This document shows, one piece after another, positions 1,170-59,392 of a DNA stretch of 64,000 nt. The notes under the pieces were generated by a model, which saw only the letters and a program-made list of their open reading frames with translations, had not been told where the DNA came from and did no database searches. Positions within the stretch are counted from its first letter, which is position 1. Each line of letters starts with the position of its first letter. Source of the stretch: Sanchytrium tribonematis (lineage: Eukaryota); the NCBI GenBank assembly GCA_018985235.1, contig JADGIG010000006.1:1-64000 (forward strand), in the 5' to 3' direction. Position numbers and translations under genes: made by a program.

Positions 1170-2355
1170 ATGTCAAGTGAAATTTCGGATAAGATTAACA
1201 GTGCCAAGAAGGAAGCTGAAGTACTTAAAGAAAAAATCAAACAAAAGAAAGATTCACTAGCAGATACCACACGTATGTTTTCAAGTCTTTGAAATGTAAT
1301 TTGATCTTGTTTACCAAGATCTGAATTTACGCGTTTTACGCTCAATATACATTTCCTCGGCTAATTATTTACTTATTTAGGACAGAGTACTAACGTAGTT
1401 CGAGCAGTTGCAGCTGAGCTTGAAACCCTTCCTAGAATTAGCATGAAAGTTAGAAGAACTCTCAAGGGACACTTAGCTAAAATTTACGCCATGCATTGGG
1501 CATCCGATAAAAGACATCTGGTGAGTGCCTCTCAGGATGGAAAACTTATCGTCTGGGATGCATATACAAGCAACAAAGTGCATGCAATTCCACTTCGAAG
1601 TAGTTGGGTTATGACCTGTGCATATGCTCCATCTGGTAACTTTGTTGCCTGTGGAGGTTTAGATAATATCTGTAGCATTTATAATTTGAAATCGAAAGAA
1701 GGCACTGTCAAAGTATCAAGAGAATTGAGTGCACATACAGGTTACCTTTCCTGTTGTCGATTTTTAAGTGACCGACAAATTTTGACCAGTTCTGGAGATA
1801 TGTCATGTATGTTGTGGGATATTGATGCGGGTCAGAAGGTCACAGAATTTACAGATCATTCTGGGGATGTTATGTCTTTAAGTTTGTCGAATAATAACAA
1901 TGTATTTGTATCTGGTGCCTGTGATGCTACTGCAAAAGTGTGGGACATTAGAGCGGCAAAATGTGTTCAAACTTTTACAGGGCATGAATCAGATATTAAT
2001 GCCGTCAACTTTTTCCCAAATGGTGACGCCTTTGGAACTGGTAGCTTTTTTTCATGTAGGAAGTGATGACGCTAGTTGCCGTCTATTTGATTTGCGAGCA
2101 GATCGAGAATTAAATCAGTATACACATGATAACATCTTATGCGGAATTACATCTGTAGGGTTTTCTGCTTCTGGCAGATTATTATTTGCAGGTTACGATG
2201 ACTTTAATTGCAATGTTTGGGACACGCTTAAAGGCGAACGGGTAGGTGTGTTGGCTGCGCATGACAATCGTGTATCCTGCTTGGGTGTATCTAGTGATGG
2301 TTTGGCTCTTTGTACTGGAAGTTGGGATTCGTTGCTAAAGGTTTGGGCAAACTAG
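1170..2355 (+). CDS. Heterotrimeric G-protein beta subunit; exons 1170-1272, 1399-2040, 2060-2355
   Basis: Spliced product MSSEISDKI...DSLADTTLRAVAAEL...[16 protein letters not shown]...[15 protein letters not shown]...[12 protein letters not shown] is a complete G-beta. Confidence 0.97.
1273..1398 (+). other. 126-nt spliceosomal intron (GTATGT...TACTAACGTAG)
   Basis: Canonical donor, TACTAAC at 1388-1394; removal joins the coiled-coil N-terminus in frame to the WD40 repeats. Confidence 0.9.
2041..2059 (+). other. 19-nt intron gtagctttttttcatgtag
   Basis: Removal restores conserved [14 protein letters not shown] of G-beta. Confidence 0.95.
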
Positions 2356-2449
2356 CAAATAAATTTATGAATCGCAGCTCAAATTCGCATATACTTCAAT
2401 GGTGTATAATAATGCTTCTGGGCCACACTAAACATATAATTTTTCAAAC

Positions 2450-3137
2450 ATGTCTCGAGAATGGTCTCCATATCAAATGAACGGCGGAAATTGTCTTGCA
2501 ATAGCTGGTAAGGACTTTGCTTTAATATGTGCAGACACAAGACAGTCTGTAGGTTTCAATATTTTAAGCCGAGATGAAAAAAAATTGCACAAATTGACTT
2601 CTAAAACAATTGTAGGATGTACCGGAATGCAAGCTGATTCCATTCAACTAACCAGAAATTTAAAACTTCAACTTGAATTATATCAAAGAGATCATAATAA
2701 GGAATGTGAGCCAAAAGGTATCGCACAGTTATTAGCAATTATGTTATACCAAAAAAGATTTTTTCCATATTATGTGTGGAATATAGTAGCTGGTGTTGAC
2801 AAGATTGGTGGAGCTGTTTTCTCATATGATCCAGTTGGCAACTTTGAACGAGTTAGATATGTTGCTAGTGGTAGCGCACAAACATTACTTCAACCTTTTT
2901 TGGATCAACAAATCGGACATAAACACAAATTAGAACCACACCCTGAGGGCAAAATTGTTGACCCGCCATTTGTGTCTAAGGAAACCGCCATTAATGTTGC
3001 CAAGGACGCATTTATCGCTGCAACTGAAAGAGATATTGAAACTGGTGATGGGTATTAATAATTTATTTAGACTGCAGATTCTGATTGTAACAAATGAAGG
3101 TATCGAAGAACTTCATTACGAACTCAAGAAAGATTAA
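2450..3137 (+). CDS. PRE7: 20S proteasome beta-6 subunit (PSMB1-type); exons 2450-3051, 3071-3137
   Basis: WSPYQMNGG start, RFFPYY, FSYDPVG, ERDIETGDGLQI, C-terminal LKKD. Confidence 0.93.
3052..3070 (+). other. 19-nt intron gtattaataatttatttag
   Basis: Removal restores ETGDG|LQILIVT. Confidence 0.95.
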
Positions 3138-3374
3138 TAAAAAATTCTTTACTTTTGGTCTATAAATATCACTCCAATAAGACTATCCTTGAAATAATAG
3201 CCATCCATACTCACCTACACTGATCGCGTCATTGTGTACCAACCCAAACTGGCAAATTGCAAAATTTGAAACATTCGGATGTGACGTTGGCGAAATCAAA
3301 CCAATCAACCTTGAAACGGCAAGTCATGATTACTCCATCCTATAGATAAAACTGAGAACGACCCATCATTTATA

Positions 3375-4034
3375 ATGTATTACTATTATTATCAACCGAC
3401 GCCTAGTCCCTACCTCCCGCCTTCAACGCCGACTGCGAGTCCTACAATTACATTTAGAGATAGTAATTCTTATTATCAATATGAGCAACCTTTTGTGCCT
3501 GAATACCCGCCATCGCCAGAGCAAGCTTTTCCGCCATCACCAAATTACGTCCCACCATCGCCAGCTATTCCGCCTTCCCCAAATGATTCAAATGGATACT
3601 ACCAAGACGTAAACCCCGCCAAGCTTTTTGAGGATCTGAGTGGCTACGTGAAACATGTTGATACTGAAAAAGGTGTAATATATCAATGTACATATCCGCA
3701 GTGTGAGAAGACATTCACACGGACTTATTCCCTGAAAGCTCATCTACGAACACACTCAACAGTCAGACCATATAAATGTTCAGTCTGTCAAAGATCATTT
3801 TTGCGAAAACATGATTGCCTTAGACATATCCGCATACATACCAAAGAAAGACCATACCAATGTGCTTGCAGCAAAAGCTTTGCAAGGCAAGATGCTCTTA
3901 AACGACATTTACAGATGGAGGAGAAATGTAGAGATGTCATGGAGCAATACAAAGGACAGAGAAAACGAATTCAGCAACTTTCTTCGCCTTATTTGATGTT
4001 TAATGAAGAAGTTGTGCCATATCAAGAAGAATAA
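3375..4034 (+). CDS. C2H2 zinc-finger transcription factor (three fingers, Pro-rich N-terminus; Crz1-like finger region)
   Basis: CTYPQCEKTF..HLRTH, RPYKCSVC..HIRIH, RPYQCACSKSFARQDALKRH. Confidence 0.9.
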   Translation: MYYYYYQPTPSPYLPPSTPTASPTITFRDSNSYYQYEQPFVPEYPPSPEQAFPPSPNYVPPSPAIPPSPNDSNGYYQDVNPAKLFEDLSGYVKHVDTEKGVIYQCTYPQCEKTFTRTYSLKAHLRTHSTVRPYKCSVCQRSFLRKHDCLRHIRIHTKERPYQCACSKSFARQDALKRHLQMEEKCRDVMEQYKGQRKRIQQLSSPYLMFNEEVVPYQEE

Positions 4035-4137
4035 ATATATGTGTATAGAAGCAATTTTGTTTGTATAATAATATTAAGATTTAAATCAAGTGAAACTTTG
4101 AATTTTTAAATGTTTTTAAAAGGTCAGTTCTAGCCAC

Positions 4138-5290
4138 ATGAATATTTTATACGCACTATTTGGGATACCTCTTTTAATAGAGATATCTCTGGTAGCGTTA
4201 TTTTTCTCTGCTCGTGGGAATTTCGAGATTATGTCACGTTCGATTATTCTAACAGTATTTGGTGGAATTTTCCTGATTCTGTCCCAAATTTCACTTATGT
4301 TGAATTTTTTTGACATCCCATTTTCCAAGTATCCAGCATTATCGTTTTCTATTTGTTTTTCAATCGGATCGACTCTAATTTATTGGAGAAATTTAAGGCT
4401 TAAGATAATTGAGTTCAAATTAGACCCATTATTTTTCCAACCTACTGTTAACAAGATTGAACACACTGGCCTATTTTTCTCTTTAATCTGGAAGCGATTA
4501 TTAGCTTTTTTCATGCTACAAAGTGTTTGGATTCTTGAGATATACCTTTTGGATTATCCTTTTGTATACCAGGGCGCTCAGCTTCTCATATTTGGTTTTA
4601 TGAATATTATTGTGCTGTATCATGTCAGAGTTTCCAAATCAAAAGACAAGATTAAAATTAGGCAAGAATTGTTGGAATTTTTTATTTTTTGTATGTTTAC
4701 TGGAATCTTTGCAACCATCGATGGTGCTTTTATGTTGTCGACTGAACGCAGACTATACAATAGCAGCATTTGGTTTGTGATATTTGTTTTCCCAGTGATA
4801 ATTGGCATTTTGACTCTTAATTCCATTTTTGCTGCTTATCAACATGTTAAATTGGAAAAGTCAATCAAAAACAATTTTGACTGCTTTGCATATGTAATGA
4901 CAAATGAAATACTATATATTGTATTATTCACTAATGTAGATGTTCAAGGAAAGAGTCGCATCGGACCTTTCAGAAGAAAATATCCTATTTTATGAAGCAT
5001 TTCAATCGTGCAGAATTAAATGTGATATGAATCAACTCATAAGTATTTTCGAAATGTTCATTGAAAGAGAAGCCCCATATGAGCTCAATATTAATGAAAG
5101 TATGAGAGAAGATTGTAGAATGAGACTCCAGAAATTAAAGAACGAAAACAAAGTAGATTATCGTATATTTGAAGAAATTGCGATGGAAGTAGAAATACTT
5201 TTGTATCAAAACTCTTTTCCTAGATTTGTAGATACCTGCCGATCATCTGAATTTACATTAAACGGCAGTAGAAAATCATTAAGTAAATAA
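4138..5290 (+). CDS. Multi-pass (about 7TM) membrane protein fused to a C-terminal RGS domain; exons 4138-4920, 4940-5290
   Basis: Hydrophobic helices, then LSEENILFYE, IFEMFI..APYELNI and NSFPRF RGS motifs after splicing. Confidence 0.85.
4921..4939 (+). other. 19-nt intron gtattattcactaatgtag
   Basis: Phase-0 removal fuses the TM region to the RGS domain in frame. Confidence 0.92.
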
Positions 5291-5327
5291 AATCAAACTA
5301 AGAAATTCCTCCAGGTTTTAAAATTTT

Positions 5328-6570
5328 ATGGCAAAGCGAATGAAAACGGAAAATAGCCACAAAGAACAATTCGCTTCTATTTATTCCATTACTGAAAATC
5401 CGGAAATTTTACAGACTTCAAACATTTTAATTATTGGCGCAGGTGGACTAGGATCTGAAATATTAAAAAATTTATGCTTTATGGGATTTGAACACATACA
5501 TATTATTGACATGGATACCATAGAATTATCAAATTTAAATAGACAGCTCCTTTTTTGCGAAAATGATATTGGTGCTTTTAAAGCACAAACTGCTGCGAAT
5601 AAAATGATGGAGTGGCAGCCAAATTGTAAAATAACAGCACACAATTGCAAAATAGAAGAAAAGGATCAACTTTTTTATACAAATTTTAATATTATCATCA
5701 GTGGTTTGGATTCCATTAGTGCCAGGCGATGGATGAATGAAGTTATAATGCAGATTTATCAACAACATGATTTAGTCATTCCCTTTATAGACGGTGGGAC
5801 GGAAGGATTTAAAGGACATGTTAGAGTGATTTGTCCTGGACTGACTGGTTGTTTTGAATGTAACATTGATATGTTTCCACCTACAGTCTCTTACCCTGTT
5901 TGTACATTAGCAAATACACCGAGACTTCCCGAACATTGTGTTATGTATGCGCTTAAACATCAATGGATAGAATTAAGGCCAAATGAGACCTTTGACAGTG
6001 ATAACGCAGAGCACGTCGAATGGCTCACAGAAAAATCAAAATCTAGAGCTGAACTATTTGGAATTGAAGGTGTAGATTTGTTTTTTACCTTGGGTGTCGC
6101 CAAAAATATAATACCAGCGATAGCTTCAACAAATGCTATCATAAGTGCAGCTTGTGCCAATGAATGTTTAAAAATAATACTGGGAATGCAAAATGTCGAT
6201 AATTTTACAATGTATAATGGTGAGCAATCAATTTACACGCATACATTTCAAGTGGAAAAGAATGACGACTGTATTGTTTGTAGCATGTTAACGAGGCACT
6301 TTGTTATGTCTCCAGATAATACTTTACAAGATGTATTAGATAAATTAGAAGATTTGTATTTTATTTTTATTTAGAAGATTACAGGCTCCGTCGATTTCTT
6401 GTGAAGGAAACACTTTATATATGCAAGGTCATGCTACTTTGAGGAAAAAGTTGGCTCCAAATCTGTTAAAGAAAATAACTGATTTATCAGCTGAAACAGA
6501 AATTCGATTTACTATCACAGACAAGAGTCTTTCAAAGCCGTCTTTAAGAGTTATTGTATCGTTAGAATAA
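5328..6570 (+). CDS. UBA3: NEDD8-activating enzyme E1 catalytic subunit; exons 5328-6355, 6375-6570
   Basis: GAGGLG, DTIELSNLNRQ, DGGTEGFKGH, CTLANTPRLPEHC, KNIIPAIASTNA; second exon LRLQAPSIS..LYMQ..PNL resembles the E2-binding domain. Confidence 0.95.
6356..6374 (+). other. 19-nt intron gtattttatttttatttag
   Basis: Removal extends the ORF into the C-terminal domain, ending at 6570. Confidence 0.92.
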
Positions 6571-6572
6571 AT

Positions 6573-10117: not shown

Positions 10118-12077
10118 ATGGATCCGCTCTATGTATTAAAATTAAAATGTTGTTATCTTGAAGAACTTTTAGAAGAAAAGTATGATGGCCAGCAAGCTGA
10201 TCTATTGAAAGAAATTGCGGACTTAAAAAGTAGACTGAAAACTAAAGGAATTAATACATTAAAATTGGAATTACAAGAATACCTTCCAACAACTGATGAT
10301 GATAATCAATATATTGAATCACTTAAAACTTTGTTGTCAAATAAATCAACTCCTGAGCATAATGAACCAGAGGCTCAGAGACTTAAAGATTTGGATATAG
10401 AACTTAATGAATCTCGAGTATACATAAAAGAGCTGGAATCCATTAAAGCTCAATTTAAAGACGAAAACTATCAATTTGATTCGTTGCAGCAAGAAAAAAA
10501 AGAACTTGAAAGCAAGTACCTTGAATTACTTCAAAACTTTGAAGATCTGCAAATTAATCAAAATGATCCGCCATCTCCACTACTAAATAAGGGTAACGAT
10601 ACCTCAATTCTGATGGATACTTCACTAATAAAATCGCAAGAGATACAGCAAACTACCTTTCTCGACTCAAAATTAAATGAAATTTTGCTCATGATTTTAG
10701 ATTCACTAGAAGAAATGAAGTCACAACAGGGCCAATTTATTTTAGATAGTCTTGATCTAGAGATATCCAATTTGGACAAAGAATCTGAAGAATTTCTTGT
10801 ACTCACTGACATTGCGAAAATACTGAGAGAATTCAACTCGAAATTGTTATCCGAACTATCCGGAAATGAATCAAATCACATAGACAATACTGGAGAGGCT
10901 AGTGATTTACGCTTTGAAATTCAACATCTTAAACAATCCTTGGATGAACTTCAAAATGAAAACAAGAAGCTAAGAGAAGAAATTAACTCGGCTTCAACAA
11001 ATTTGGACTACAAGAGTAGTGATGAATATAAAAATTTGCAAGAGAAAGTAAAAAATTGGAAAATCCAAGTTATGCAAGCTATGAACGAGAAAGAAAAAGT
11101 CAATAGCACTCTGCAAGAGAATCTTGATTTACTTCGTAATGAGTTAAGTGAATGTTCCTCAAAACTAGATTATGAGCAAAACTTGGTCCAAAAGTATAAA
11201 GAAGAAGTAGAATTGCTGTTAACCCAACGAAAGCCCCTTGATGAAAATTTGGAAGAAAATGAAAATTTTTTGAGATGGAAGAAGGATTATGCCCATTTAA
11301 ATGAAGAGAATGTAAAATTGAAAAGTTATAATGAACAAATTAATAGCAGATTGACAGAAGTAATTGATAATGCAGAAAGTTTGAAAAAAAATATGGATAT
11401 GTACGAGCAAGAAATCCGCGATTTACTAGATAAGTTGGAGGTTGTAAAAGAAGAGAAGGAAAATTTGAATGAAATTCTAAGGGCCTTGAGCCTTAAACTG
11501 CAAGCAAGATTGACAGAAGAAGTAGATGATAAAAATATTCTTGAAAAGTACGAATTAATGATAAATGCCACAGAATCGTTTATAAACGAGCTCGAAGTGG
11601 ACAATGTACAACTTCATGATAGGGTCAGACAACTCGAACAACATATTGATATTGAAATTGGAAAAACAGAAGCAGAAAAATTACGCGCAGAAAAATTGGA
11701 AGACTTGCTTCACCAGAAAGAAAAAATTGTACAGGTAGATGTCGCTTATTTAGCTAAACCGAGAGAGCGTTCAAGAGCTTATCCGACTAAAGCAGGTCCA
11801 GTCAAATCAAATCAAACAATTGGCCGAACAGCGAAATATTTTTGGTTCAGACTTACAACTGAAATATGATGAGCTTGCTTTGAAGTATAAAAAGGTTTAT
11901 GAAGAATACCAAAAATTAAAGGACAGGTACAAGCAAAAGGAAAAGTCTGCAAAACGGTCCAGGTCAAAAATTAGAAACGTTCTTGAACATCAAATAATTC
12001 AGCCAAGGTCTCCTAATCAGTACGAGAATGTTATGCTGCAAGAAGCTTTGAAGGACCTGGAAAAAATTAAACAGTAA
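10118..12077 (+). CDS. Long coiled-coil protein of unknown function; exons 10118-11734, 11754-12077
   Basis: E/K/L-rich heptads; the two ORFs join in frame after intron removal. Confidence 0.8.
11735..11753 (+). other. 19-nt intron gtagatgtcgcttatttag
   Basis: Removal gives KIVQ|LNRESVQELIRL, in frame with the 11820-12077 ORF. Confidence 0.88.
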
Positions 12078-12139
12078 CTACAAGTAAATACCAAATATCG
12101 TTTTCTGAAAAAATTTGTCAAAATTATAGGAGACAAGGG

Positions 12140-13263
12140 ATGATTCGTCATTGTATCAAGCGCGGTATGAAAGAATTAAATTTTGGAGGATCTGTTGAAA
12201 AAGTATACGAAAGAGCTGATTATCCACCTGCAAAACTTGCAAAGACACTTGAAAACGATACCTTAGCCATTCTTGGCTATGGTACACAAGGTCGTGGCCA
12301 GGCTCTAAATTTGAGGGACAATCTGAAAAAAATACATGAAGCAGGTGGTAACACCAAGGTTGTACTAGGTTTGAGAAAAGGGTCTTCATGGGATCTTGCG
12401 CTTAAAGACGGCTGGACCCCAAACAAAGATTTACTTGAAGTTGACGATGCTTGCGACAAAAGTACAGTAGTGATGAACTTGTTAAGCGATGCTGGTCAAA
12501 AATCAAGTTGGCCACAAATCAAGAAACATTTAGAGAAAGGAAACAAAACTTTGTATTTTGCTCACGGTTTTTCAGTTGTCTATAAAGACCAAACAAAAGT
12601 TATTCCTCCTAAGAATATCGACGTAATTTTGGTCGCCCCTAAAGGCTCAGGCACTACCGTCCGTAGTTTGTTTCTTGAGGGAAGAGGTATTAATGCTAGT
12701 GTAGCTGTATTTCAAGATGTTAGTGGAAAGGCGTGGGAAAGAGCACTTTCTATCGGAACTGCTGTTGGAGCAGGTTATATGTATGAAACAACTTTTCAGA
12801 AAGAAGTTTACTCCGACTTGACTGGTGAACGTGGAGTGTTAATGGTACATATGATCTGATTTAGGGTGGTATATATGGGCTATTTAAAGCCCAATATGAG
12901 GTTTTAAGAGAGCGAGGACATTCCCCTAGTGAAGCCTTCAATGAAACTGTCGAAGAAGCTACTCAGTCGTTATATCCTTTAATTGGAGCAAACGGAATGG
13001 ACTGGATGTACGACAATTGTTCAACAACCGCTAGACGTGGTGCTCTGGATTGGTACCCAAAGTTTTACGAGGCAAATCTTCCTGTATTCCGCCAATTGTA
13101 CGACGATGTTGTTAATGGTGCCGAAACTAAGAGAACTTTAGATTTCAACTCCCAAAAAGACTACAGAAGTTTGCTTGAAAAGGAGCTCAAAGAGATCAGA
13201 GAACATGAGATGTGGAAAGCTGGCGTACAAGTAAGAAAGTTGAGACCGGAAAATGCTGAATAA
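12140..13263 (+). CDS. ILV5: Ketol-acid reductoisomerase, mitochondrial; exons 12140-12844, 12865-13263
   Basis: GYGTQG, VAPKGSG, EVYSDLTGERGVLMGGIYG, SEAFNETVEEATQSLYP, CSTTARRGALDW, LRPEN. Confidence 0.97.
12845..12864 (+). other. 20-nt intron gtacatatgatctgatttag
   Basis: Removal restores ERGVLM|GGIYGLFKAQY. Confidence 0.95.
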
Positions 13264-14604: not shown

Positions 14605-15397
14605 TTAAGTAAAGGATTGCGATATTTTGTTAATTTGTTCCAAACTGCTGCTTTTTTCTGGTGTGGTCGCACCTGACAAAGCATTCAGATCACTTCTGCT
14701 CCTTTTTGGGGCTTGAGTCATGAGTTGAAATGTTGGCTTTGTGTAATTTGCCAATGATTCAACACCCTAAATAAAATTAAAATACGGGTAAGTTGTTGAT
14801 GCAATAATTGATTAATGGTTGATTCAGACCGTAATATTCCATTCCAGATATTGATCTTGGCTTAGAGTTTCGAACGAGACCTGCCTTTGCCGCTACCTGA
14901 CTCCATACAATATTGGTCGTCTTTCCTTCAAAAAAATCTGCACAATCATCTGGTTTAATAATAAAATATGGACTTCCATCTCTTTCTTCAATACTGCACA
15001 AGTATTGTGTTGTACGCAATACGTCGATAGTTGATTGATAAGACCTCTTCACCGTATAGCCTAGTGGAAATATATGCTTTTCATTGTACCACCTGGCATC
15101 ATTTTTTATAGTTCCTATTTTCATTATGGTATACTGTCCCGATTTAAAAGGTGTTAACGGTACACCTTCCCCAGTCATAACGGGAATTTGGTGATGATAA
15201 ACAATTTTCTTATTCCTAGAATTCTTTTTTTGAGGCTTCTTTTCAGCAATTGGAATTGTAGTGATTTCGTGCAAAAGATCGTTACAAGTGTCGCTGACAT
15301 CTGAAAGGTCATCATCAAAATCGGCAAGTCTTTCAAATTGTAGAATTTTGTCTACCGCAGCTTCACGTTCTGCCCAAACGCTTTCCAGAGTTAACAT
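14605..15397 (-). CDS. FYRN/FYRC-domain protein (TBRG1-like); exons 15397-14786, 14766-14605; start uncertain
   Basis: IGTI..WYNEKHIFPLGY..RSYQS..YLCSI, SGMEYYGL..LPGVESLANY. Confidence 0.8.
14767..14785 (-). other. 19-nt intron gtattttaattttatttag
   Basis: Removal restores the FYRC end NNLP|GVESLANY. Confidence 0.92.
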
Positions 15398-15577: not shown

Positions 15578-16118
15578 ATGACTAGGCCACACAAAATGAG
15601 TATTGACTGGAAAACTCTGTATGAACCAACATTTGGTAAGTTTGACTCTAGAAAATTTACTTGTAGATGTGGTGCGACTTTGACCAAGCCTGCAAAGTTT
15701 AATTGTCTGATGCACCTTCAGAATAGTTGTCCTTTGTTAACGCCACAACATTATCTATTAAGTGATTTGGTAAAAAAACTGGTACAATTGACTGTTAATG
15801 ATCCATTAGGATGGAGATATCGAGTAATGCAAGATGGGAGTAATTCTTTCTAATTTAGATGTTAGGTCAAAAAGACTGCCTGCCCACTTAAGTGCAACTA
15901 GTTATGGGTATGCCTGGACATGCTTCACCTGCCAAACCGTGCTGCCTTTGGATCAGAACATGGTCCTTCAACATATTCAAAATTGCGAATCATCATCTTG
16001 CCTAGTCAAAATAAGTTCAGATTGTAGAGGAAATGATGCGGCCTCGTTTGAAGCAGAAGGATTGAAAGCTGTAGACAAACATAGACTAATGGCTTTCATT
16101 ACCGATTTCCATGTATAA
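15578..16118 (+). CDS. Small protein with two Cys/His zinc-binding-like motifs; exons 15578-15839, 15859-16118
   Basis: FTCRCG...HLQNSC and WTCFTC...HIQNC; the two ORFs join via a consensus micro-intron. Confidence 0.65.
15840..15858 (+). other. 19-nt intron gtaattctttctaatttag
   Basis: In-frame junction QDG|NVRSKRL; matches the intron consensus. Confidence 0.85.
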
Positions 16119-20229: not shown

Positions 20230-21691
20230 ATGACAAAAATTGTGCTTCCTGATTTAATTGTTGTGAATGCTATAAATATTGAAGAATTAAAAGATGATAT
20301 CATCAAATGTATTAAAAATAGTAGCTTTGTCTGTGTCAATTTGGTGCATAGTGACAAATCAAATTTCGCACCAAAAGACAATGAGGCTGCCGAGTATGCT
20401 CAAATGAAACGAATTTTACACCAAAGCACTGTGGTTTCTATTGCACTTAGTGTGGGGACATTGCAAGAAACCGAAGAAGGCAGTAGTGTTACACGTGTAA
20501 AGCATTTTCAGATTCAGGTGAATGCTTTCACCGATTCTACTGATCACAATCTCTTTACCACCAGCTATACCATGCAGGGCTACAATGTTAAGGAGGCTCC
20601 GTTTGCCATAAGATACTTTCCAGGAAAGCCAAGAGATCTCGGATTCTCTTTAGGCACTTCAGAAAGATCATTCATATACCCAAAAGCGCACACTTCTTTA
20701 ATGATGATTATGAACTCTATTTTATTGCCTTCAACTACCAGATACTTGTTTGTGTATGAAGGACTCGAGACTCTCATGGGATTTTACAACGCATTTATTA
20801 CTTGTCTGCCTCATAATTCCAAAGAATTTCTAGTTGATTGTGAAGACATATTTAAAAATGTAATTGACGTCTCACTATATTCAAAATTATTACCCTTGCG
20901 AGTTGACTTTCCAATTGTTGATAAAGATTTATTCATATTGGCATTAGAGCATGGGGACTTAAGCAAAATTTATTCAGTTTCAGCAGAAGTCCCCACTCAA
21001 AGTTGGCCTGAATTTACAGACGTCTACGAACAGCAAATCATAGAAAGTAAAAATAAGCCACTTGAAGTGGGAGAACCTACTCAAAATTACTGTACCAAAA
21101 CTCTGGAATGCGGATATTGTGAAAAAGAAGGTTATATTTATTTATCTAGGATCGTGTGAATACAACCATAGCCTTCAAGATCTACTTCTGGTTGAGAAAG
21201 GCAAGGATACAGCCCTTAAGCAGAACAATAAAGGTGCCAGTTGGAAAGTCCCAAAGCGTCTGCGAACTTGGCATATCGCAGGTATTTTAATTTGCTCTTT
21301 AATACCCGTTGTGTTGAATGACAAGGAACGATTTGGGAAAGTGCTTAATACTTTGAGGTGCCCAGGTTTACTTAAAGATTTGGAAATTAAAAAATACGGA
21401 GGCACCCCTATCAGTGTTGAATGGGAGCGCAGAAAAAATGCCTTGACAGGCGAGACTGACCTGATACAAAGATCTCTTCGACCACAAACAGATTTTCGAG
21501 GGAGAACCAGAGGTCGTGGTGGCAGAGGAGCATCTCGCGGCACAAGAGGACGCGGTCGAGGCGGACAACGACGTGGTGGGCATAGAAGCCCGCCAAAATC
21601 TCAAAATCAGGGTCGACGACCAGATCAAAACTATGGAAGAGGTGGTAGATTCACTGCACAGCATTCTACGCCAAGATACCAGCCATATTGA
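20230..21691 (+). CDS. TOE1-like CAF1-family protein with CCCH zinc finger and RGG tail; exons 20230-21130, 21150-21691
   Basis: IKCIKNSSFVCV, SIALSV, FITCLP..EFLVDCEDIF..VID; spliced CTKTLECGYCEKEGSCEYNH fits C-x8-C-x5-C-x3-H. Confidence 0.65.
21131..21149 (+). other. 19-nt intron gttatatttatttatctag
   Basis: Removal builds an exact C-x8-C-x5-C-x3-H finger. Confidence 0.92.
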
Positions 21692-21809: not shown

Positions 21810-23197
21810 ATGAAATTCATACAGGAACAACAGCCATTACAACGAGTTCCGGACTCAAAACGTCATATATTACATGAATTAGTTGAAACAGAAAAATCTT
21901 ATGCGCGTCATTTAACAGTAATGTTAACATATTTTAGGGACAACTTTAAAGAACTTCTCAATACACCGGAACAAGTTGTATCAGCACCCTTTGTAAAAAT
22001 TGTTTTTACAGGTATACCAGAACTCCGTGATTTTGCCCTTAAAGTTGCAGATGATTTAGAAAGGGCGTTCCGTCTATGGGAAATGGATGAAGATGAGTCA
22101 GTGGGTATCATTTTTATCAAAAGAAGGGAAGAATTCACAATATATAAAAAATATGTAGATAACTATGCTATTGCAATGAACCAAATTCGTGATGCTCAGC
22201 GGAAAAATCCAGCTTTCGGAGAGTTTTGCAGCAAGGCCAGAGGATCAAAAGAAACAGATAGACAAGACATAACGGATTACATGATTTTGCCAATACAAAG
22301 AATATTAAGATACAGTTTACTATTAAAAGATTTGAAAAAGAAGACACCTGTGTCACACTTTGACTATAACGATTTGAGTCATGCTTTTGATGAAATGAAT
22401 GAATTGTCGACACAATTAAATGAAGTTAAATTGAAAGAAGAAGAAACAACAAGAATGTTTGAATGTGAAAGAGTTGTTGAAGGATTTCCTCCACAAATCA
22501 TTTCAGCCTCAAGAAGATTGATTATTGAAGGCGATGGAATATCACCTTCGCTCCAAAAGGCAGCGATGCACATTGTGGTATTTTCTGACGTTGTAATGCT
22601 CACGAGAATAAAGCAACAAAGGTCCATGTTTAAATTTAGTAGCTCAACATCCTCGAATAATCTTGATGCTAAAAAGTACAAATTTGAGAAACTTATATAT
22701 ATACAAGACATAACCAAAGTATTATTGGATAGTCAGGATGGTAAATTCATTTTAATTTAGACAAGGTTATTTTAAAGATATTTGGTGTTGGTGACAAGCA
22801 TGATACGAAACGAACTGAAGAAATATTTTGTGATTTGGTACTAGAAAAGGATATAGGATCTCAATTAGAACAAGTTTTGAAGTTGAGATTAAAAGAATAT
22901 AGAAGAGCTTCTGTAGAAAATAAACCACAAGTGGAAATTGTAAAATTAAGCAAATTGAATGGAGGAGACATAATCGACCTTGAAGAAACTTCATCTATTG
23001 AATCAAATAATACAAATACATCGAGTGTCACAGCGTTGGCTGGCTATTTATTTAAATCAAAAAGCAAAAGTCAAGAAAATAAGACTGAGGACCTGGTGTC
23101 GAGGTCGCAATCGCTGCATTCCAATTCCAGAAGCGGTTCGAGGAATAGTACACTTAAGGCAAATGTGATGTCGCCAGCTAGTGCAAAGTCGCAATAA
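21810..23197 (+). CDS. RhoGEF (DH-PH); exons 21810-22740, 22761-23197 (alternative ATG at 21732)
   Basis: ELVETEKSY, ILPIQRILRYSLLLKDLKKKTP, followed by a PH-like region. Confidence 0.92.
22741..22760 (+). other. 20-nt intron gtaaattcattttaatttag
   Basis: Removal joins SQD|DKVILKIF in frame to the 22835-23197 ORF. Confidence 0.88.
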
Positions 23198-33287: not shown

Positions 33288-35070
33288 TTATTCATCTGTG
33301 ACGCAACCTTTGGACGCACTTGACACCGATTTTATAAACTTGTATAGCACACCACTTTTAACTTTATACTCAGGCGCTCTAAATAGCTTGGCCCTTTTTT
33401 TGAGTTCGGCATCTGAAACATTAAAGTTCATTAACCTTTTTTCTGCATCAATTTCCACAATGTCGCCTTCTTTGACTAATGCAATTGGCCCTCCAGTTTG
33501 AGCCTCGGGGCTTACATGTCCAATTATGAATCCGTGTGAGCCACCACTATATTATTCAAAAATACCTAAAACGACCATCTGTTATTAAAGCCACATCTTT
33601 TCCTAATCCTGCCCCCATTATCATAGATGTGGGATTAAGCATTTCTTTCATTCCCGGTCCTCCTTTGGGCCCTTCATAACGAATTATTAATACATCTCCT
33701 TTTTTAATTTGTTTTTCTTCAATTGCAATTAACAGGTCTTCTTCTTTATCAAAACATCTAGCTGGGCCTTTGAAGTAAAGTCCCTCCTTGCCTGTAATTT
33801 TGGCCACACTTCCCTCTGGCGCCAGATTTCCATACAAAATTTGAATATGACCTGTCTTTTTTATAGGTTTGGAAATAGGAAAAATGACTTTCTGACCTTC
33901 ACTTAAAGATGGGACTCGGCTTAAATTTTCAGCCATAGACATTCCAGTGACAGTCAAGCACTCACCGTGTATCCAGCCTTGTTCATATAGATATTTTAAT
34001 ACGGCAGGAACCCCTCCAACTTTATGAAGATCCTCCATCACATATTTTCCACTTGGCTTCATGTCGGCTAAGAAAGGTATCTTATCGCTGATCCTTTGCA
34101 CATCATCCAACGCCAAATCAACATTGGCAGATCTAGCCATTGCAATCAAATGTAGCACCGCATTTGTTGAGCCACCTAAAGCCATAGTCAAAACCAATGC
34201 GTTCTCAAAGCTTTTTTTCGTAAGTATATCCAATGGTTTAATGTCCTTTTCCATCAACATTCTCAAATAAGCACCTACTTGTTTACACTCTTCCATTTTT
34301 TCTTCATCGGTTGCTGGTGTGGAGGATGAGAATGGCAAACTTAATCCCATTGCCTCGATTGCTGAGGACATTGTGTTCGCAGTGTATAACCCACCACAAG
34401 CACCAGCGCCTGGGCAAGCATGTTTCACTATGTCTAATCGTTCCTCTTCTGTTATTTTACCACTAATATATTCCCCATAACTTTGAAATGCTGAAATAAT
34501 ATCGAGTGATTCATTAGGACGACAAGCTGCTTTTCCTGCTTTAATAGTGCCCCCATACACAATGATTGAGGGCCTATTCAGTCTGCAAAGACCGATGAAT
34601 GAGCCAGGCATATTTTTATCACAACCCGGAATTGCAACAAACCCATCATAATATTGCGCACCACCTACCGTCTCAATAGAATCTGCGATAATTTCTCTAC
34701 TAGGTAAGGAGTATGCCATGCCTGGTGTGCCATTACTGATCCCATCACTTACGCCAATAGCATTAAAGCGATATCCTATTAAATTTTGATCCTCTACACC
34801 TTCTTTCACATATGATCCAAGCTCATTTAAATGCATATTACAGGGATTTCCTTCCAGCCACATACTGCATATTCCTATTTGAGCCATATCGAGGTTTTGA
34901 TGCGGCTTTATAGTGCTGTACAATTGAGCCTGACCTGCACCTTGGGATTTTACCTGTGTTATGCGTTTCGAAGTTTTGTTTACTGGCGCGTTCGAATTCG
35001 TTTGCAAATTTTTGGTAAAATATCGGTATAATTGGGAACTACTTTTCCCATGTAAAACAATTGTATTCAT
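33288..35070 (-). CDS. ILV3: Dihydroxy-acid dehydratase, mitochondrial; exons 35070-33566, 33546-33288
   Basis: [56 protein letters not shown]. Confidence 0.98.
33547..33565 (-). other. 19-nt intron gtatttttgaataatatag
   Basis: Removal restores the invariant TDGRF|SGGSHG. Confidence 0.96.
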
Positions 35071-39200: not shown

Positions 39201-40176
39201 CAAGGTACCATCGTTGTCATGGTTGTCAAAGGTAACGTGGCTTTAAGTCCTTCCATTCATGATGCCTGTAAATCTATCGGCAGTGTATTTGTTCATCAAA
39301 TAATGGAAGGAGATGGTTGGTGTATGATTGGAGAAAAAGGTGCCACACCTGGAACTGTAGCTGAAGGTTATCAACAAAGTGGCTCGACGCCGAAAATATC
39401 GAGACTTTTCGATAATATACATGGAGACGGAGTTATATATCCAAAAAATAGCATAATGACTAGTGGTCCAAGTCATGGTACAATTAATTTATTTAGGTAA
39501 ATGGTTAAGAAAAAGAAAAAATGATGGTGCACTTAATCGAGTGCCATTGAATTTTTATCCAAAAGTATATTATGTTTTGGAAAGATGTGAAGGATTGCAA
39601 ATAGAAAATCAAGTACTTCCTAGAAATCCAACGGTGAGTGAGAAGACAGCTCAAGAATTAAACTTTGCTTATCAAGTGGAAGCATTTTTAGATAAGACTA
39701 CTAGAGATCCTGCAGAGAGACAAATAATTGTTGAAATTTTGGTTGTTTTGTACAATATCTTTATCGGACAATCTGATGTTGGTGTAATGGAAACTCACTT
39801 TAGCAAAAATATTCATGTCACAAAGGAAAAGAAAATCAGAAATGACGAAATAATCGATGTTTCTAACATCCTTCATCGAGCATTATCAAATTACTGGAAC
39901 GATTGGATTACGAAAAGAACAAACTCGATCCAGAAGCATCACTTTGTTGAAGACACAAGCAGTAGTCCAACTGATTTGTCTGAGACAAACTTGAAAACCA
40001 CCTCTTCTTCCAAGAGCCTGCAAATGAGTATGGAAAGTGAGGTTGAAATTCCAAATCATTCAGATTTTCTAGGTTTTGAAGGAAATATTGGGCATGCAAA
40101 GAGATTATTTTATGACCTTCAAAGACACGGCAAAGTGGGTACTTTAAATTACATCCATAAGTGTGTGAAGTTGTAA
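36207..40176 (+). CDS. Phosphorylase b kinase regulatory alpha/beta-like subunit (GH15-like); exons 36207-39477, 39497-40176
   Basis: TGLLPAS, DAWVRDNVY, WGHLQIDA, PDYGIWERG, LPRES.SKEIDA, RFLRDG, GKWLRKRKNDGALNRVP. Confidence 0.92.
39478..39496 (+). other. 19-nt intron gtacaattaatttatttag
   Basis: Removal gives PSH|GKWLRKRKNDGALNRVP. Confidence 0.93.
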
Positions 40177-52375: not shown

Positions 52376-52866
<491 letters not shown>

Positions 52867-54830: not shown

Positions 54831-55419
54831 TTACAATTCTTCTTTTCTCATTTCACGTCGTTTTAATTCTCTTTCAACGAATCGATCTTTCATGTCATCA
54901 TAACGTTCAGAAACTCTTTCCTTGACACGATCTTCCATTCCTTTCAATTGGTCGTCTAATTTTGTCATCATATCAGGTGTGATTGTTTTCTTTTGAACTG
55001 GTTTTTCTGGTCCTTCACCTCGATTGTACTTTGCATATCGATCAATTCCTAAATAAGTTAAAAATACCGCTCATGTCTTCGTACAAGCGGTGGAACATAT
55101 CGTGTGCCATACCTGTTGCAAAATCACTCATGTATTCATCAAATTGACGACGAGTGTCAGGATGGTCAAAATCGATTTCAGTGTCACTGACTTGTCTCTT
55201 TTTCTTTGGCTCTCTTTTAACAATTCTTGGGTCGGCTTCAGGTCCCATTTGGTCGAAACTTCGCTTATGTAAATAATTTAAATGATCCTCAACGGATTTC
55301 ATTGATCTTTCGTATAAACGCTTATATTTAGGGTGAACTGTAGGATCGTCCATGACTTCCCGCTTCTGAATGTGTCCTGGTCTAGCAAAAATCAAAGTTA
55401 ACAAAATTAATTGAAGCAT
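54831..55419 (-). CDS. Secretory-pathway protein with signal peptide and C-terminal KEEL; exons 55419-55068, 55048-54831
   Basis: MLQLILLTLIFA signal; spliced product ends RREMRKEEL*. Confidence 0.75.
55049..55067 (-). other. 19-nt intron gtatttttaacttatttag
   Basis: Removal opens a 218-nt last exon ending in KEEL*. Confidence 0.9.
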
Positions 55420-55651: not shown

Positions 55652-56264
55652 TTATTCTTTTCCAGCCCAGTCTTTCTTAATAGCAAAGCACCACTCAAAA
55701 TCAAGATGGGTGACTTGATCGTCATCAATAAAACTAAATGAGTTTGATTTACCGAGATCGGACGTTGTATGTACCACGCGCTAGAGCTCCACTAGGTGCC
55801 TCTTCTGGTTGAAATTTCTTTTCATAAGGAGTTGGGTTTGGCCCGTAGCTTCCAAGCATTTCCTCTGCCTTATCAACTTTTATTCCATTACGCTTGACAA
55901 CATGAAGGTATTTGAGTCCGGAAACGACATCGTTTTGGACCTGGAACTTAATTTTGAGCTTGTATTCAATGCCTTCTTTGATAATCATAGGGTTCTTTTT
56001 ATATTCTTCCAATTTGGTGGTATCTTGCAAATTTAAAACGACATCAGATCGCTCGGCAACTTCCATAGCTAATTCTAGCGGAATAACTTTTTTGCCTCCT
56101 TTTGGAACAGCACCAGTGGCCACACCAAGGCTTTCTTTCCACTTTCTCAAACTCTCATCCTCAGCGTCAAGATTTTGAAGTTCTTCTAGAGTCTTTTTGG
56201 CTGGTGCCTTGTAGTTAACGTCATTGGTTACAGCTAGATCATCGTCCTGAGGTTGAGTAGACAT
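55652..56264 (-). CDS. RDI1: Rho GDP-dissociation inhibitor; exons 56264-55753, 55733-55652
   Basis: LDAEDESLRKWKESL, IKEG.EY, MLGSYGP, EEAPSG.LARG.Y, FIDDD..THL.FEW...IKKDW. Confidence 0.97.
55734..55752 (-). other. 19-nt intron gtaaatcaaactcatttag
   Basis: Removal restores VRSR|FIDDD. Confidence 0.96.
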
Positions 56265-56304: not shown

Positions 56305-57648
56305 TTATTTCAAATTTATTTTGGGCTTTGGTGTCAATTGCAAATATGTTTGCCAGTCATCCTCATCACCTATCTCAATAACATCTGTGCCATCTATATA
56401 ACTCATTTTTATGGATTTTAAATTCAATTTTGTAGTAATTTTTAATTGGGCTTCCTTGTAGGTGTTGTTATTTAATAGCATCACAAAAACTTTTCCAGAA
56501 AAGTCAAATTTTGCCGGACTGGCAACTGGTTCGGCAACTTGCTCGTCACTTCCCTTGTTTTCGTCAATAGAACCCTTCCTTTCCTTTGGGGCTAACTTTT
56601 GGGGCTTGTTCTGGAAAGTTGTGGGGGCCTTGAGCTCATTGGGGTCTTCTTTTTTCTTTTCTCTTGGTTTGTCGGTCTTCTCTTTACTATCTGCTTCTTT
56701 AGGCTTCTCTTTCGCCTCTTTGTTCACTTCCTTTGTATCTTTTGGTACGTTTCGTTTGCCTTTCATAGGTTCACTGACTGCAACTCCACTACCGACTTTC
56801 ATTTGGTTCCATGGTGCAACAATTTCTGCGGCACTCATTCCTTCTTTCACTTGATATTTTTTATTGTACACAGTGTCAATTTCCCAATTCTGAAAAAAGT
56901 TTTGAATCAATTGACTGTTAAGAATGTGTTCGGGTAATTGAGCAAAAATTTCCTTGCAATAAACTGCTAGCTGAGCAGCTCTTCGCTGCGTAACATTCTC
57001 ATTGGCAAATGGAACGGGTCCGGGAATGGTAGGTATCACTCTTGTTCCAGAAATTCCGCTCTCTTGTGGAAATGTCGCTAAAAGTGTAAGCTGCATGTCA
57101 TAAAAGTCTTGATATGTCCTGTAAATTATTCTATGGATGTGATCTTTTGAATCTGTCTCAATGAGAAAAGTCCAAACATTTCCTTTTCCTTTAAAATATT
57201 GAACCACAATGGCGAATGTTATATTTGCTGCTGTTGGAGTTGCGCATTCCTTGAGATAGGTAGTTTTTTGCGTTGGTTCGAGTCTCTTCAAAGTCCCATA
57301 AGGTTTTAGGGTTCCACGAGATGTATTCTCTGCTGCTGTGAATCTTGAAAGTGTCATTTTTGGTCGCTCTATCTTGGCAACTTTTGGTTTTATTTCTTTT
57401 TCATTTTGTTTGTCTGCTACTTGATTTGTCTTAACTGGTAATTCAAGTGGTTTTAATGCCTTTTTGATTTCCAGGTAGTTGCTGGGCACATATCCTTCTT
57501 TTCCCTTATACTTTACCAGAGTCCAGTCTGTACTCCCTTTCACAACCTCTACTTCTTCACCCTCTTTGATTGCTAAAGCTTGCAGACCATTTTCGAAGTC
57601 ATATTTTTCAGTACCAGGATCAAAATCAAATTGTAGCTTCACGTGCAT
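56305..57648 (-). CDS. SH3-PX-PB1 scaffold (Bem1/Scd2-like architecture with one SH3)
   Basis: SH3 DW...KEGYVPSNYL; PX RTYQDFYDMQ..L..FP.E.G..R.IP.IPGP; PB1 MSYIDG.DVIEIGDEDDW. Confidence 0.85.
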   Translation of the reverse strand: MHVKLQFDFDPGTEKYDFENGLQALAIKEGEEVEVVKGSTDWTLVKYKGKEGYVPSNYLEIKKALKPLELPVKTNQVADKQNEKEIKPKVAKIERPKMTLSRFTAAENTSRGTLKPYGTLKRLEPTQKTTYLKECATPTAANITFAIVVQYFKGKGNVWTFLIETDSKDHIHRIIYRTYQDFYDMQLTLLATFPQESGISGTRVIPTIPGPVPFANENVTQRRAAQLAVYCKEIFAQLPEHILNSQLIQNFFQNWEIDTVYNKKYQVKEGMSAAEIVAPWNQMKVGSGVAVSEPMKGKRNVPKDTKEVNKEAKEKPKEADSKEKTDKPREKKKEDPNELKAPTTFQNKPQKLAPKERKGSIDENKGSDEQVAEPVASPAKFDFSGKVFVMLLNNNTYKEAQLKITTKLNLKSIKMSYIDGTDVIEIGDEDDWQTYLQLTPKPKINLK

Positions 57649-57942
57649 CTTAAAAATTTATTTTTACCCATTTTTACAATTTATTACCAAAACAAAGCAA
57701 CTACATTGACTCATGCTTGTATTATCGCATTTAAATTTATTTGATTCAGTTGATTGACGTCAAAATGTTTAACGAAGTTGATTTGGATGATTGTCACGAA
57801 TAGATATTGAAGCTCAATTGTTCTTATGGTGTTAGCTATTTCCGATACTTTTGGTAATTGAATAACAAAAAGTTATTAATATATTTGCTTGCCCAGACTT
57901 TCGATTGGTTTTTATTCAAAACGCGCCACTTTTAAATTTTCA

Positions 57943-59392
57943 ATGGATGACGAAAAGAAAGACTTAAAAATTCAAATCCCTGCCAACAAGGATTTGAAGT
58001 CATCTGTAGAAAGAAAAATACCAGAAGACCTTAAAACAGATACTTTTGTAGCAATTGTAGGGCAACCTTTGCCTCAAGCAGGAAGTACAAGTCCAAAACC
58101 TTTAATTGTTAACGCAGAAGACAATCCGGCTTTAATTAAACCGCCAGACCAAGACCCTGAAGGCGCAAGTCCGGGATACCATGAAAGAAAAGTTATGGAT
58201 GTACTTGATGGAAATAATGAAGACCCTTTCACTTTAGATTCGTTCAAAGAATTAATATTAAATCACGCGGATCAAGAGAAAGATTATATTTTAGCCAGAG
58301 TTATTACGATGGATCCAAAAGACAACACACGTTTTTATTATTCCTATTATCCTGGGCATAATATTAATAAGGTTCTATTTAGAACCCAACCTGAAGAAGG
58401 GCTATTACATAGAATGAAAGCCAAAAATCCGCTTAATAATATGACTATTGTGGGTGATGTATTTTACTACGCTATATCTTGTAAGCAGTCGGAGAAAGTT
58501 AAACGAAAAGATAAAAGTAACGATGCGTCTCCAGAGTCTATTAAATCTCCAAGAACGATACAGAGAAACGCTATGAGTGCTAAATTAAAAATAATATTGG
58601 AGCAGTCACCAAAATCAACCTATTTAGTGACACGTCCAGACATGCATGAGAACGAGCCATTAAAAACTCGAAGACCTAGTGCAGATGACGTATTTTCTTA
58701 CACCAAGACTGCGCCAAATTTATCGCCTTCGAAATTATTTCACAACTCTGAATTTTGGCAAGGCTGGCAAAATAATTTAAGAGCCCAAAAAATAGAATTA
58801 GAGACTCTGAGTGCTGGAACTGAATTGGATGTATCCGCTTCATTATTGTCTCCCAAGCAAGTTAGTTATTTAAATGATCGACAGAGTGTTTCCATAAATG
58901 ACTGGATATCGAACCATACAACCTCCAAAGAAAAAGTATTCCTCATTTATTTAGTCTCCAACCATCTTCTATGCACATTATATTGGCAGCGACGATGACT
59001 TTTTAATGAAATCTAACTTTAGACAATTCTTTAAGAAAAACGCATTGACAGATGAAGAGGCTGTTCTATTCTCTCTACCAACAAACTCACTTTACCCTTC
59101 TACACCAAATCCGCAGGACCAACTCCCCCCAAATGACGACCAGTCGCGCCTCAAAATGGTAAGATATGTTCTAGGTAGTTATCTGATGGTTATAATCTTA
59201 GTCTTGGGTGCATTTTTGTTTTCCTCAAAGGACCGTGACACAAACAACGATCAATTTAAAACAATGATCATTGTGAGTGGCGTGTTATTGAGTGTAGTTA
59301 TAGGTATACTTGTAGCATATGAAATATATATTAGAAGACGTGGTAGAGCTGGTAGCGAACCACTGAATTCTAATGCAGACCATGAAGAATAA
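57943..59392 (+). CDS. Conserved hypothetical membrane protein (DUF5092-like); exons 57943-58935, 58955-59392
   Basis: EDPFTL, ARVIT.D...YYSYY, GLLHRMKAKNPLNNM.IVGDV.YY, YIGSDDDFL; two C-terminal TMs. Family name is recalled, not verified. Confidence 0.7.
58936..58954 (+). other. 19-nt intron gtattcctcatttatttag
   Basis: Removal joins SKEK|SPTIFYAHY in frame to the 59006-59392 ORF. Confidence 0.9.

What the first reader, a model, noticed from the sequence alone, without database searches (positions are those of the whole stretch)
2041..59392. Micro-introns cluster near gene 3' ends, the reverse of the usual bias
Seen: distances from intron to stop are 46, 67, 82, 162, 196, 218, 259, 260, 296, 324, 349, 351, 399, 437, 438, 542, 545 and 680 nt. 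This holds even in the 4-kb phosphorylase-kinase gene and the 1.8-kb ILV3 gene. 17 of 18 lie at or beyond the CDS midpoint, and most genes have just one. Known: intron-poor yeasts and microsporidia keep 5'-biased introns. Inference: splicing may be coupled to 3'-end processing, or intron loss runs from the 5' side. Caveat: introns after very short first exons are harder to see by eye, although RPS12, RPS19, NDK, HSP90, TPI, GAR1 and RDI1 have contiguous N-termini.
Basis: partly seen in the sequence, partly recalled or inferred. Interest (0 to 1): 0.75.

Follow-up and report, generated by a model that had tools for sequence, protein, structure and literature searches.

The report
Fungal micro-introns crowd gene ends
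In this stretch of DNA from a sanchytrid fungus (a small group of algal parasites), all eighteen predicted 19-20-letter introns lie within the last 700 letters of their genes, the reverse of the usual fungal pattern, likely because such tiny introns are cut out with help from the machinery that finishes the message.

Summary
The window is from a sanchytrid fungus: ILV5 is 88% identical to Amoeboradix gromovi. It has 18 predicted micro-introns (15 of 19 nt, 3 of 20 nt) in 17 of 52 genes, all ending T-n-A-T-n-T-A-G. Seventeen of 18 lie at or past the CDS midpoint (p=1.4e-4). None lies more than 700 nt from the stop, where 7.2 were expected (p=1e-4). 'One per gene' is what chance gives. Motif scans found no hidden 5' micro-intron. 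Four of four positions tested are shared with sanchytrid relatives, but only one of five matched a position in other eukaryotes, and common 3' introns were lost too. So loss from the 5' side alone does not explain the pattern. Best reading: a mostly lineage-specific set of micro-introns kept only near the poly(A) site, likely through splicing coupled to 3'-end formation (inferred). The ciliate Fabrea salina is a precedent; my searches found none in fungi. There is no RNA confirmation, and only 64 kb was examined.

The parts
1273..1398 (+).
   Evidence: Spliced model has 331 identities to the 345-aa P0001; same position in 10 of 10 intron-bearing G-beta loci mapped
2041..2059 (+). 19-nt micro-intron, G-beta, 296 nt from stop (0.72)
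   Evidence: Pfam WD40_Gbeta 243|245 across the junction; relative P0257 breaks at the same place; not in 10 of 10 outgroup loci
3052..3070 (+). 19-nt micro-intron, proteasome beta-6 (2450-3137), 67 nt from stop (0.90)
   Evidence: Relatives P0261-P0263, including A. gromovi, break at the same place; the 21-aa last exon has no Pfam hit of its own
4921..4939 (+). 19-nt micro-intron, membrane-RGS gene (4138-5290), 351 nt (0.69)
   Evidence: Joins exon 1 to an RGS domain, profile 15-110
6356..6374 (+). 19-nt micro-intron, UBA3 (5328-6570), 196 nt (0.84)
   Evidence: ThiF in exon 1, E2_bind 23-80 in exon 2
11735..11753 (+). 19-nt micro-intron, coiled-coil gene (10118-12077), 324 nt (0.83)
   Evidence: Motif and frame only
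12845..12864 (+). 20-nt micro-intron, ILV5 (12140-13263), 399 nt (0.64)
   Evidence: KARI_C resumes at profile 18; P0122 (A. gromovi), P0123 and P0242 break at the same codon
14015..14034 (+). 20-nt micro-intron, amino-acid transporter (13309-14579), 545 nt (0.56)
   Evidence: Aa_trans 3-191 | 203-376
14767..14785 (-). 19-nt micro-intron, FYRN gene (15397-14605), 162 nt (0.79)
   Evidence: Motif and frame only
15840..15858 (+). 19-nt micro-intron, unknown gene (15578-16118), 260 nt (0.50)
   Evidence: Motif and frame only
21131..21149 (+). 19-nt micro-intron, CAF1-family gene (20230-21691), 542 nt (0.62)
   Evidence: Motif and frame; weak CAF1 hit in exon 1
22741..22760 (+). 20-nt micro-intron, RhoGEF gene (21732-23197), 437 nt (0.70)
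   Evidence: Motif and frame
33547..33565 (-). 19-nt micro-intron, ILV3 (35070-33288), 259 nt (0.85)
   Evidence: ILV_EDD_C 1-110 | 112-191
39478..39496 (+). 19-nt micro-intron, phosphorylase-kinase regulatory subunit (36207-40176), 680 nt (0.83)
   Evidence: Glyco_hydro_15 in exon 1, KPBB_C 72-171 in exon 2
52422..52440 (-). 19-nt micro-intron 2 of UBC4 (52863-52376), 46 nt (0.90); the one position shared outside sanchytrids
   Evidence: UQ_con 36-129 on the middle exon; animal-type fragments end at the equivalent codon
52725..52743 (-). 19-nt micro-intron 1 of UBC4, 330 nt (0.27); the only micro-intron before the midpoint
   Evidence: two codons from the break seen in animal-type fragments
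55049..55067 (-). 19-nt micro-intron, unknown secreted-type gene (55419-54831), 218 nt (0.62)
   Evidence: Motif and frame only
55734..55752 (-). 19-nt micro-intron, RDI1 (56264-55652), 82 nt (0.86)
   Evidence: Rho_GDI 6-171 | 173-193; relative P0359 (85%) stops at the same codon
58936..58954 (+). 19-nt micro-intron, DUF5092 gene (57943-59392), 438 nt (0.69)
   Evidence: DUF5092 2-100 | 109-144

Best explanation
This sanchytrid fungus carries predicted 19-20-nt spliceosomal introns only in the last 700 nt of its coding sequences, likely because it lost nearly all ancestral introns and kept or gained micro-introns only where the nearby 3'-end machinery would help the spliceosome recognise them. 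Shown: the positions, the fixed 3' motif, the AATAAA signal at or just after the stop, sharing of positions among sanchytrids, and absence of widespread ancestral introns. Inferred: the A at -6 is the branch point; most positions arose in the sanchytrid stem; a donor reduced to GT(A) on a 19-nt intron is too weak alone and is defined across the short last exon by U2AF/U2 contacts with the polyadenylation complex, so micro-introns far from the poly(A) site are spliced badly and purged. The single long 5' intron has full donor and branch consensus and would not need that help.
For: Position statistics: 0.80, 0.48 and 0.43 introns per kb within 200-400, 0-200 and 400-700 nt of the stop, 0 beyond. 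Both 3'-biased models beat uniform by 6-9 log units. AATAAA lies at -6..+24 of the stop in 37 of 52 genes against 0.6% of random 30-nt CDS windows, so stop distance is close to poly(A) distance. Donor information is limited to GT plus A in 17 of 18, while T-8, A-6, T-5, T-3 are invariant in 18 of 18; the 5' intron has GTATGT and TACTAAC. Same break in sanchytrid relatives for 4 of 4 genes tested. Outgroup match for 1 of 5 positions. The A. gromovi annotation lists U1-70K, U2AF35, U2AF65, SF3B1, CBP20, CBP80 (PMC8371127 supplement). Coupling of last-intron splicing to 3'-end formation through U2-CPSF and U2AF65 is established elsewhere (PMC3325483 passages).
Against: No RNA evidence of splicing or of coupling. 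Stentor splices 15-nt introns with a 5' bias (PMC9505925), so tiny size alone does not demand 3' coupling. UBC4 has two micro-introns, so one is not terminal. An absolute-distance model (log-likelihood -153.1) and a relative-position model (-152.4) fit equally. Outgroup sampling is patchy, rests largely on where ORF fragments break, and holds no identified blastoclad gene structure, so 'lineage-specific' may be overstated; the RDI1 and first UBC4 positions are only 1-6 nt from outgroup breaks and could have slid. Only 64 kb was examined, about 0.6% of a 10-11 Mb genome.
Confidence: 0.4

Rival explanations
1. Fabrea-like mutational loss: an older, evenly spread intron set was removed preferentially from 5' and middle regions (for example by internally or self-primed reverse transcription), sparing the last few hundred nt; survivors shrank to 19-20 nt.
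For: The last UBC4 intron sits at a position seen in animal-type fragments while two widespread upstream ones are gone. RDI1 and UBC4-1 are 1-6 nt from outgroup breaks. Preferential 5' loss is reported for F. salina (PMC13685798); internal loss for ascomycetes and Cryptococcus (PMC532390; PMC2395259).
Against: G-beta lacks the common 3' introns (238, 271, 301, 341/343) and has one at 249 seen in 0 of 10 loci and none of the fragments. A pattern for a TAG-ended intron at 249 gave 0 hits in the metagenome collection. The most 5' ancestral intron is the one kept.
Confidence: 0.25
2. 3'-biased gain: after near-total loss, new introns were written in by a poly(A)-primed cDNA route (for example reverse splicing then reverse transcription), which reaches only the last several hundred nt; no selection on position is needed.
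For: Sharp drop to zero beyond 700 nt; mostly unshared positions; uniform length and motif; four retrotransposon-type ORFs in the A. gromovi annotation.
Against: No excess similarity among introns (2 pairs with at most 2 mismatches, p=0.6) and flanking repeats of 0-4 nt only. No 'reverse transcriptase' entry in the searched supplement. The same cDNA route should remove 3' introns faster than it adds them. New introns are 5'-biased in Drosophila and fungi (PMC2809761; PMC8476143).
Confidence: 0.18
3. Selection for surveillance: one intron near the end leaves an exon junction complex downstream of almost the whole ORF, so premature stops trigger decay (idea recalled from Lynch and Kewalramani 2003; paper not seen).
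For: A. gromovi lists Y14, Mago, UPF2 and UPF1-like proteins. None of the 18 introns is a multiple of three, and retention gives a stop within 4-135 nt in all.
Against: 35 of 52 genes have no intron; only 3 of 8 genes over 1.7 kb have one; one intron per gene is not enriched; no UPF3 (KOG1295) entry.
Confidence: 0.09
4. Sampling or detection artefact: the genome is unbiased or biased at both ends, and 5' introns (UTR, long, or with another motif) were missed in this window.
For: One long 5' intron was in fact missed by eye; about half of the genes have no homologue to check the N-terminus; UTR introns cannot be found by frame logic; n=18.
Against: Gaps between CDS are mostly under 250 nt; strict and relaxed scans show no sense excess; bias persists in the homology-supported subset.
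Confidence: 0.08

Closest known systems
Fabrea salina tiny introns (heterotrich ciliate; PMC13685798 and PMC9004412, passages read)
   Same: Streamlined genome, tiny fixed-length introns with a conserved branch A, 68.2% single-exon genes (here 35 of 52, 67%), extreme 3' enrichment.
   Different: 15 nt against 19-20 nt; a ciliate against a fungus; there attributed to preferential loss of 5' introns, whereas here most tested positions are not shared with outgroups; the passages give no absolute 700-nt limit.
Stentor coeruleus 15-16-nt introns (PMC9505925, section 2.1 read)
   Same: AU-rich, GT-AG, branch A six nt from the 3' end, mostly one intron per intron-bearing gene.
   Different: Stentor introns are 5'-biased; 4 nt shorter.
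Intron-poor fungi such as Saccharomycotina, Microsporidia, Ustilaginomycotina (PMC8476143 passages; PMC2483917 abstract and section 15)
   Same: Low density (0.36 per kb here); fixed branch-to-AG distance; the long G-beta intron fits this type fully.
   Different: Their introns sit near start codons and are lost from 3' ends; lengths are longer (E. cuniculi mean 35.8 nt).
Short-intron lineages such as Paramecium, the Bigelowiella nucleomorph and dicyemids (PMC2483917 section 15)
   Same: Very short introns with a donor reduced to GT(A).
   Different: Those are intron-dense and show no branch signature; here introns are sparse and the branch position is invariant.

Membership tests
U2-type spliceosomal introns | GT-AG ends | tested here: met
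   18 of 18 micro-introns and the long intron
U2-type spliceosomal introns | Branch-point adenosine near the 3' end | tested here: met
   A at -6 and T at -8 in 18 of 18; same in the long intron. Sequence only; no lariat data
U2-type spliceosomal introns | Removal restores a conserved protein | tested here: met
   Profiles resume within one codon in G-beta, ILV3 and RDI1; looser support for 9 more; 6 rest on motif and frame
U2-type spliceosomal introns | Excision seen in RNA | not testable with these tools
   No RNA holder listed. Indirect only: P0001, a full-length 96%-identical G-beta on a 1068-nt contig
U2-type spliceosomal introns | Major spliceosome encoded | tested here: inconclusive
   Factors listed for the relative A. 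gromovi; no genome was held for this organism; no snRNA in the window
U12-type (minor) introns | Extended conserved 5' motif (definition recalled) | tested here: not met
   Donor columns 4-6 are variable and A/T-rich
Fabrea-type 3'-enriched tiny introns | Tiny, near-fixed length | tested here: met
   15 of 19 nt, 3 of 20 nt
Fabrea-type 3'-enriched tiny introns | 3' enrichment | tested here: met
   Quintile counts 1,1,2,8,7 for all 19 introns; window only
Fabrea-type 3'-enriched tiny introns | Caused by preferential loss of 5' ancestral introns | tested here: inconclusive
   1 of 5 positions shared with outgroups, 3' ancestral introns also absent, outgroup sample patchy
Introner elements | Families of near-identical intron copies | tested here: not met
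   Pairwise similarity as in column shuffles, p=0.6; old copies would have lost likeness
Introner elements | Target-site duplication | tested here: not met
   Junction repeats 0-4 nt, no constant length
Intron-poor fungal pattern | Introns near the start codon | tested here: not met
   1 of 18 micro-introns within 200 nt of the start; 2 of 19 with the long intron
Sanchytriomycota (host lineage) | Groups with Amoeboradix gromovi | tested here: met
   ILV5 88% identical, clade support 100/100; other fungi 61-68%. One-gene tree

The most novel reading that the evidence does not exclude
Sanchytrids rebuilt their gene structure: they shed almost all ancestral introns and acquired thousands of new 19-20-nt introns that can exist only near the poly(A) site, because their spliceosome depends on the 3'-end machinery to define them. 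This would be a fungal phylum with an inverted intron landscape and a position-dependent spliceosome.
Probability: 0.3. Interest if true: 0.85.

Novelty: new variant of a known kind. Interest (0 to 1): 0.62.

Why it matters
[quoted passage not shown] A fungal lineage with the opposite bias, convergent with the ciliate Fabrea, gives a second independent case for testing whether mutation or splicing mechanics sets intron position. A 19-nt mode would be among the shortest known in fungi (recalled, not searched). There is also a practical effect: the published sanchytrid proteomes were predicted with TransDecoder on genomic contigs (PMC8371127 methods passage), and 21 of 21 window ORFs looked up are in the collection unspliced under source 'eukprot'. 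With 17 of 52 genes interrupted here, many sanchytrid proteins are likely truncated or split in databases, which may affect gene counts and gene-loss claims for this phylum.

Tried and rejected
No whole genome was held, so there was no genome-wide test. No RNA holder listed. The one run listed, X1, may be the source of this DNA; laid on 1-20000 it showed no joints or indels, which is not independent support; the rest of the window was not covered by reads. Searches for genomic contigs of relatives found none: pattern scans, related-locus scans in viral and prokaryotic collections, and the HSP90 scan, which returned 14 loci at 58-65% identity without the motif excess. Of the 80 G-beta loci kept, I mapped 10 of the 14 whose match span indicated introns (L012, L067, L068 and L070 were left out as apparent near-duplicates of mapped loci); most others look like transcripts. 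'One per gene' was rejected as chance, introner families and target-site duplications were not found, and no hidden in-frame 18/21-nt introns stood out. Rfam at gathering thresholds and ARAGORN found nothing. The G-beta intron hairpin is marginal (z=-1.76). One bogus ORF (33501) was in the gene list and was dropped. Literature: 'sanchytrid'+'introns' gave 0 papers; 'Sanchytrium'+'Amoeboradix'+'intron' gave 8, none on their nuclear introns by listing, and the genome paper mentions 'intron' once, in a reference. Searches for 3'-biased introns gave only the ciliate precedent. The library lacks most subscription papers, and two supplementary files of PMC8371127 were too large to read, so intron remarks there cannot be excluded. 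Earlier scan findings: none returned.


Full report
Setting. The window is a gene-dense eukaryotic sequence of 35.6% GC with 52 complete coding sequences totalling 53,385 nt and mostly very short gaps between them. ILV5 exon 1 is 88% identical to EukProt record EP00835 Amoeboradix gromovi and 61-68% to other fungi; the window, that record and an environmental protein form a 100/100 clade. The organism is therefore a sanchytrid other than A. gromovi. Sanchytrium tribonematis, the other species in the genome paper (34.6% GC, 11.2 Mb; PMC8371127 table passage), is likely but was not tested directly. No whole genome was held.

Observation. Eighteen micro-introns were rebuilt by script: 15 of 19 nt and 3 of 20 nt, in 17 genes. 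All start GT (GTA in 17) and end T-n-A-T-n-T-A-G, with T-8, A-6, T-5 and T-3 invariant. Seventeen of 18 lie at or past the midpoint (p=1.4e-4; mean 0.71). With each intron placed uniformly in its own gene the mean distance would be 605 nt against 313 observed (p=7e-4). None falls in the 40% of coding sequence more than 700 nt from a stop (p=1e-4). Splicing both G-beta introns gives a 346-aa protein with 331 identities to P0001. With it the count is 17 of 19 (p=7e-4). The per-gene counts 35/16/1 are Poisson-like.

Are they real, and were 5' introns missed? Profiles resume within one codon across the junction in G-beta, ILV3 and RDI1, and both sides carry matching domains in ILV5, UBA3, UBC4, the transporter, DUF5092 and phosphorylase kinase. 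Twelve micro-introns have homology support of some kind and six rest on motif and frame; in the twelve the bias remains (11 of 12, p=0.006). A strict motif scan gave 21 hits against 3.1 by chance: the 18, two antisense hits and one downstream of RDI1. A relaxed scan of spliced CDS gave 23 sense and 30 antisense hits. A search for upstream first exons found, besides G-beta, only four stray pairs in ORFs that need no intron. UTR introns or introns with another motif could still be missed. No RNA junctions were available, so all introns are predictions.

History of the positions. Database proteins called on unspliced DNA break at introns, which allowed a test. In sanchytrid relatives the break is at the same codon for ILV5 (3 proteins), proteasome beta-6 (3), G-beta (1) and RDI1 (1): 4 of 4 genes tested. 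Outside sanchytrids the picture differs. In 10 intron-bearing G-beta loci the 5' intron at codon 35 is present in all 10; others sit at 194, 238, 271, 301, 341 and 343, none at 249. Fragments agree, and a pattern for a TAG-ended intron at 249 found nothing in the metagenome collection. ILV5 homologues break or skip near 232 and 239, not 235. In 77 UBC4 fragments the common breaks are 68/69 and 103/104, both absent here; several animal-type fragments end at the codon of the last window intron, matching the human UBE2D last boundary as I recall it; the first window intron is two codons from the animal-type break. Among 150 RhoGDI representatives breaks cluster at 150, 159, 169 and after 171 in plant-type sequences, one nt from the window position; one unassigned fragment ends at 171 and is ambiguous. 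So 1 of 5 positions is shared exactly, two are within 6 nt of a known break, and common 3' introns were lost as well. This evidence is indirect and thinly sampled.

Mechanism. AATAAA lies on or just after the stop in 37 of 52 genes, so every micro-intron is probably within about 700 nt of a poly(A) site. Micro-introns have almost no donor information, while the one 5' intron has a full donor and branch consensus with the same A at -6. I commit, at 0.4, to a selective filter: micro-introns are defined across the short last exon with help from 3'-end factors, a coupling known in other systems (PMC3325483 passages), and so persist only there. Against it, Stentor splices shorter introns with a 5' bias, one UBC4 intron is not terminal, and absolute and relative models fit equally. 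Rivals are Fabrea-like 5'-side loss (0.25), 3'-biased gain through poly(A)-primed cDNA (0.18), selection for junction-complex surveillance (0.09; A. gromovi lists Y14, Mago, UPF2 and UPF1-like proteins) and artefact (0.08). My confidence that the 3' bias itself holds genome-wide is about 0.85.

Comparison. Fungi lose introns from 3' ends and keep them near start codons (PMC8476143 passages); internal loss sparing both ends is known (PMC532390, PMC2395259 passages). The close precedent is Fabrea salina, with 15-nt introns, 68.2% single-exon genes and 'extreme 3' enrichment' attributed to 5' loss (PMC13685798 and PMC9004412 passages). My searches found no account of sanchytrid introns. Other papers seen: PMC10639083 and PMC2809761 (passages), PMC2483917 (abstract, section 15), PMC9505925 (passages, section 2.1), PMC8371127 (passages and searches in one supplementary table, cut in its second sheet).

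Verdict. A real, statistically solid feature of this window, in an unstudied fungal phylum, with one precedent in ciliates: a new variant of a known kind. The cause is open and the genome-wide claim is an extrapolation from 18 introns. A side result is that database proteins for this lineage are unspliced and truncated (21 of 21 look-ups). Interest 0.62.

Noticed in passing
window 1360-1398 (+): The G-beta long intron has a second acceptor at 1380 that fits the micro-intron 3' motif exactly and is in frame; its use would add 6 residues. The 5' part folds into a long hairpin of marginal significance (z=-1.76).
   Followed up: partly
window 49386-49472 (+): Possible non-coding intron upstream of GAR1 with a strong donor and a matching acceptor, around a C/D-box-like core (sub-threshold Rfam hit at 49395-49459, E=3.3; no folding signal). 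May host a snoRNA.
   Followed up: partly
window 27000-28450: 1.5-kb gap with broken frames and 41-76-nt direct repeats, resembling a decayed repeat-protein pseudogene.
   Followed up: partly
window-wide: AATAAA often overlaps the stop codon itself, and convergent genes are only 2-92 nt apart, so 3' UTRs must be tiny or overlap.
   Followed up: partly
window ORFs; P0121, P0245, P0260, P0264-P0271, P0349-P0358: Window ORFs are stored in the protein collection unspliced, ending at stops inside or just after introns; the same holds for A. gromovi P0122 and P0262.
   Followed up: yes
window 4138-5290, 17684-18730, 18849-19994: Three similar-looking membrane proteins with RGS-like C-termini (Pfam RGS hit only for the first); two are tandem and intronless, one has a micro-intron.
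   Followed up: no
window 36207-40176: The phosphorylase-kinase regulatory subunit carries an ILEI domain near residues 964-1046.
   Followed up: no
P0123, P0242, P0257, P0261, P0263, P0359, P0001: Several unnamed environmental proteins at 84-97% identity point to unsampled sanchytrid lineages, one on a 95-kb contig; they would extend the intron test.
   Followed up: partly
window 474-528, 3150, 19293: Run X1 shows three variant sites in a short alternative contig and two single differences from the window.
   Followed up: no
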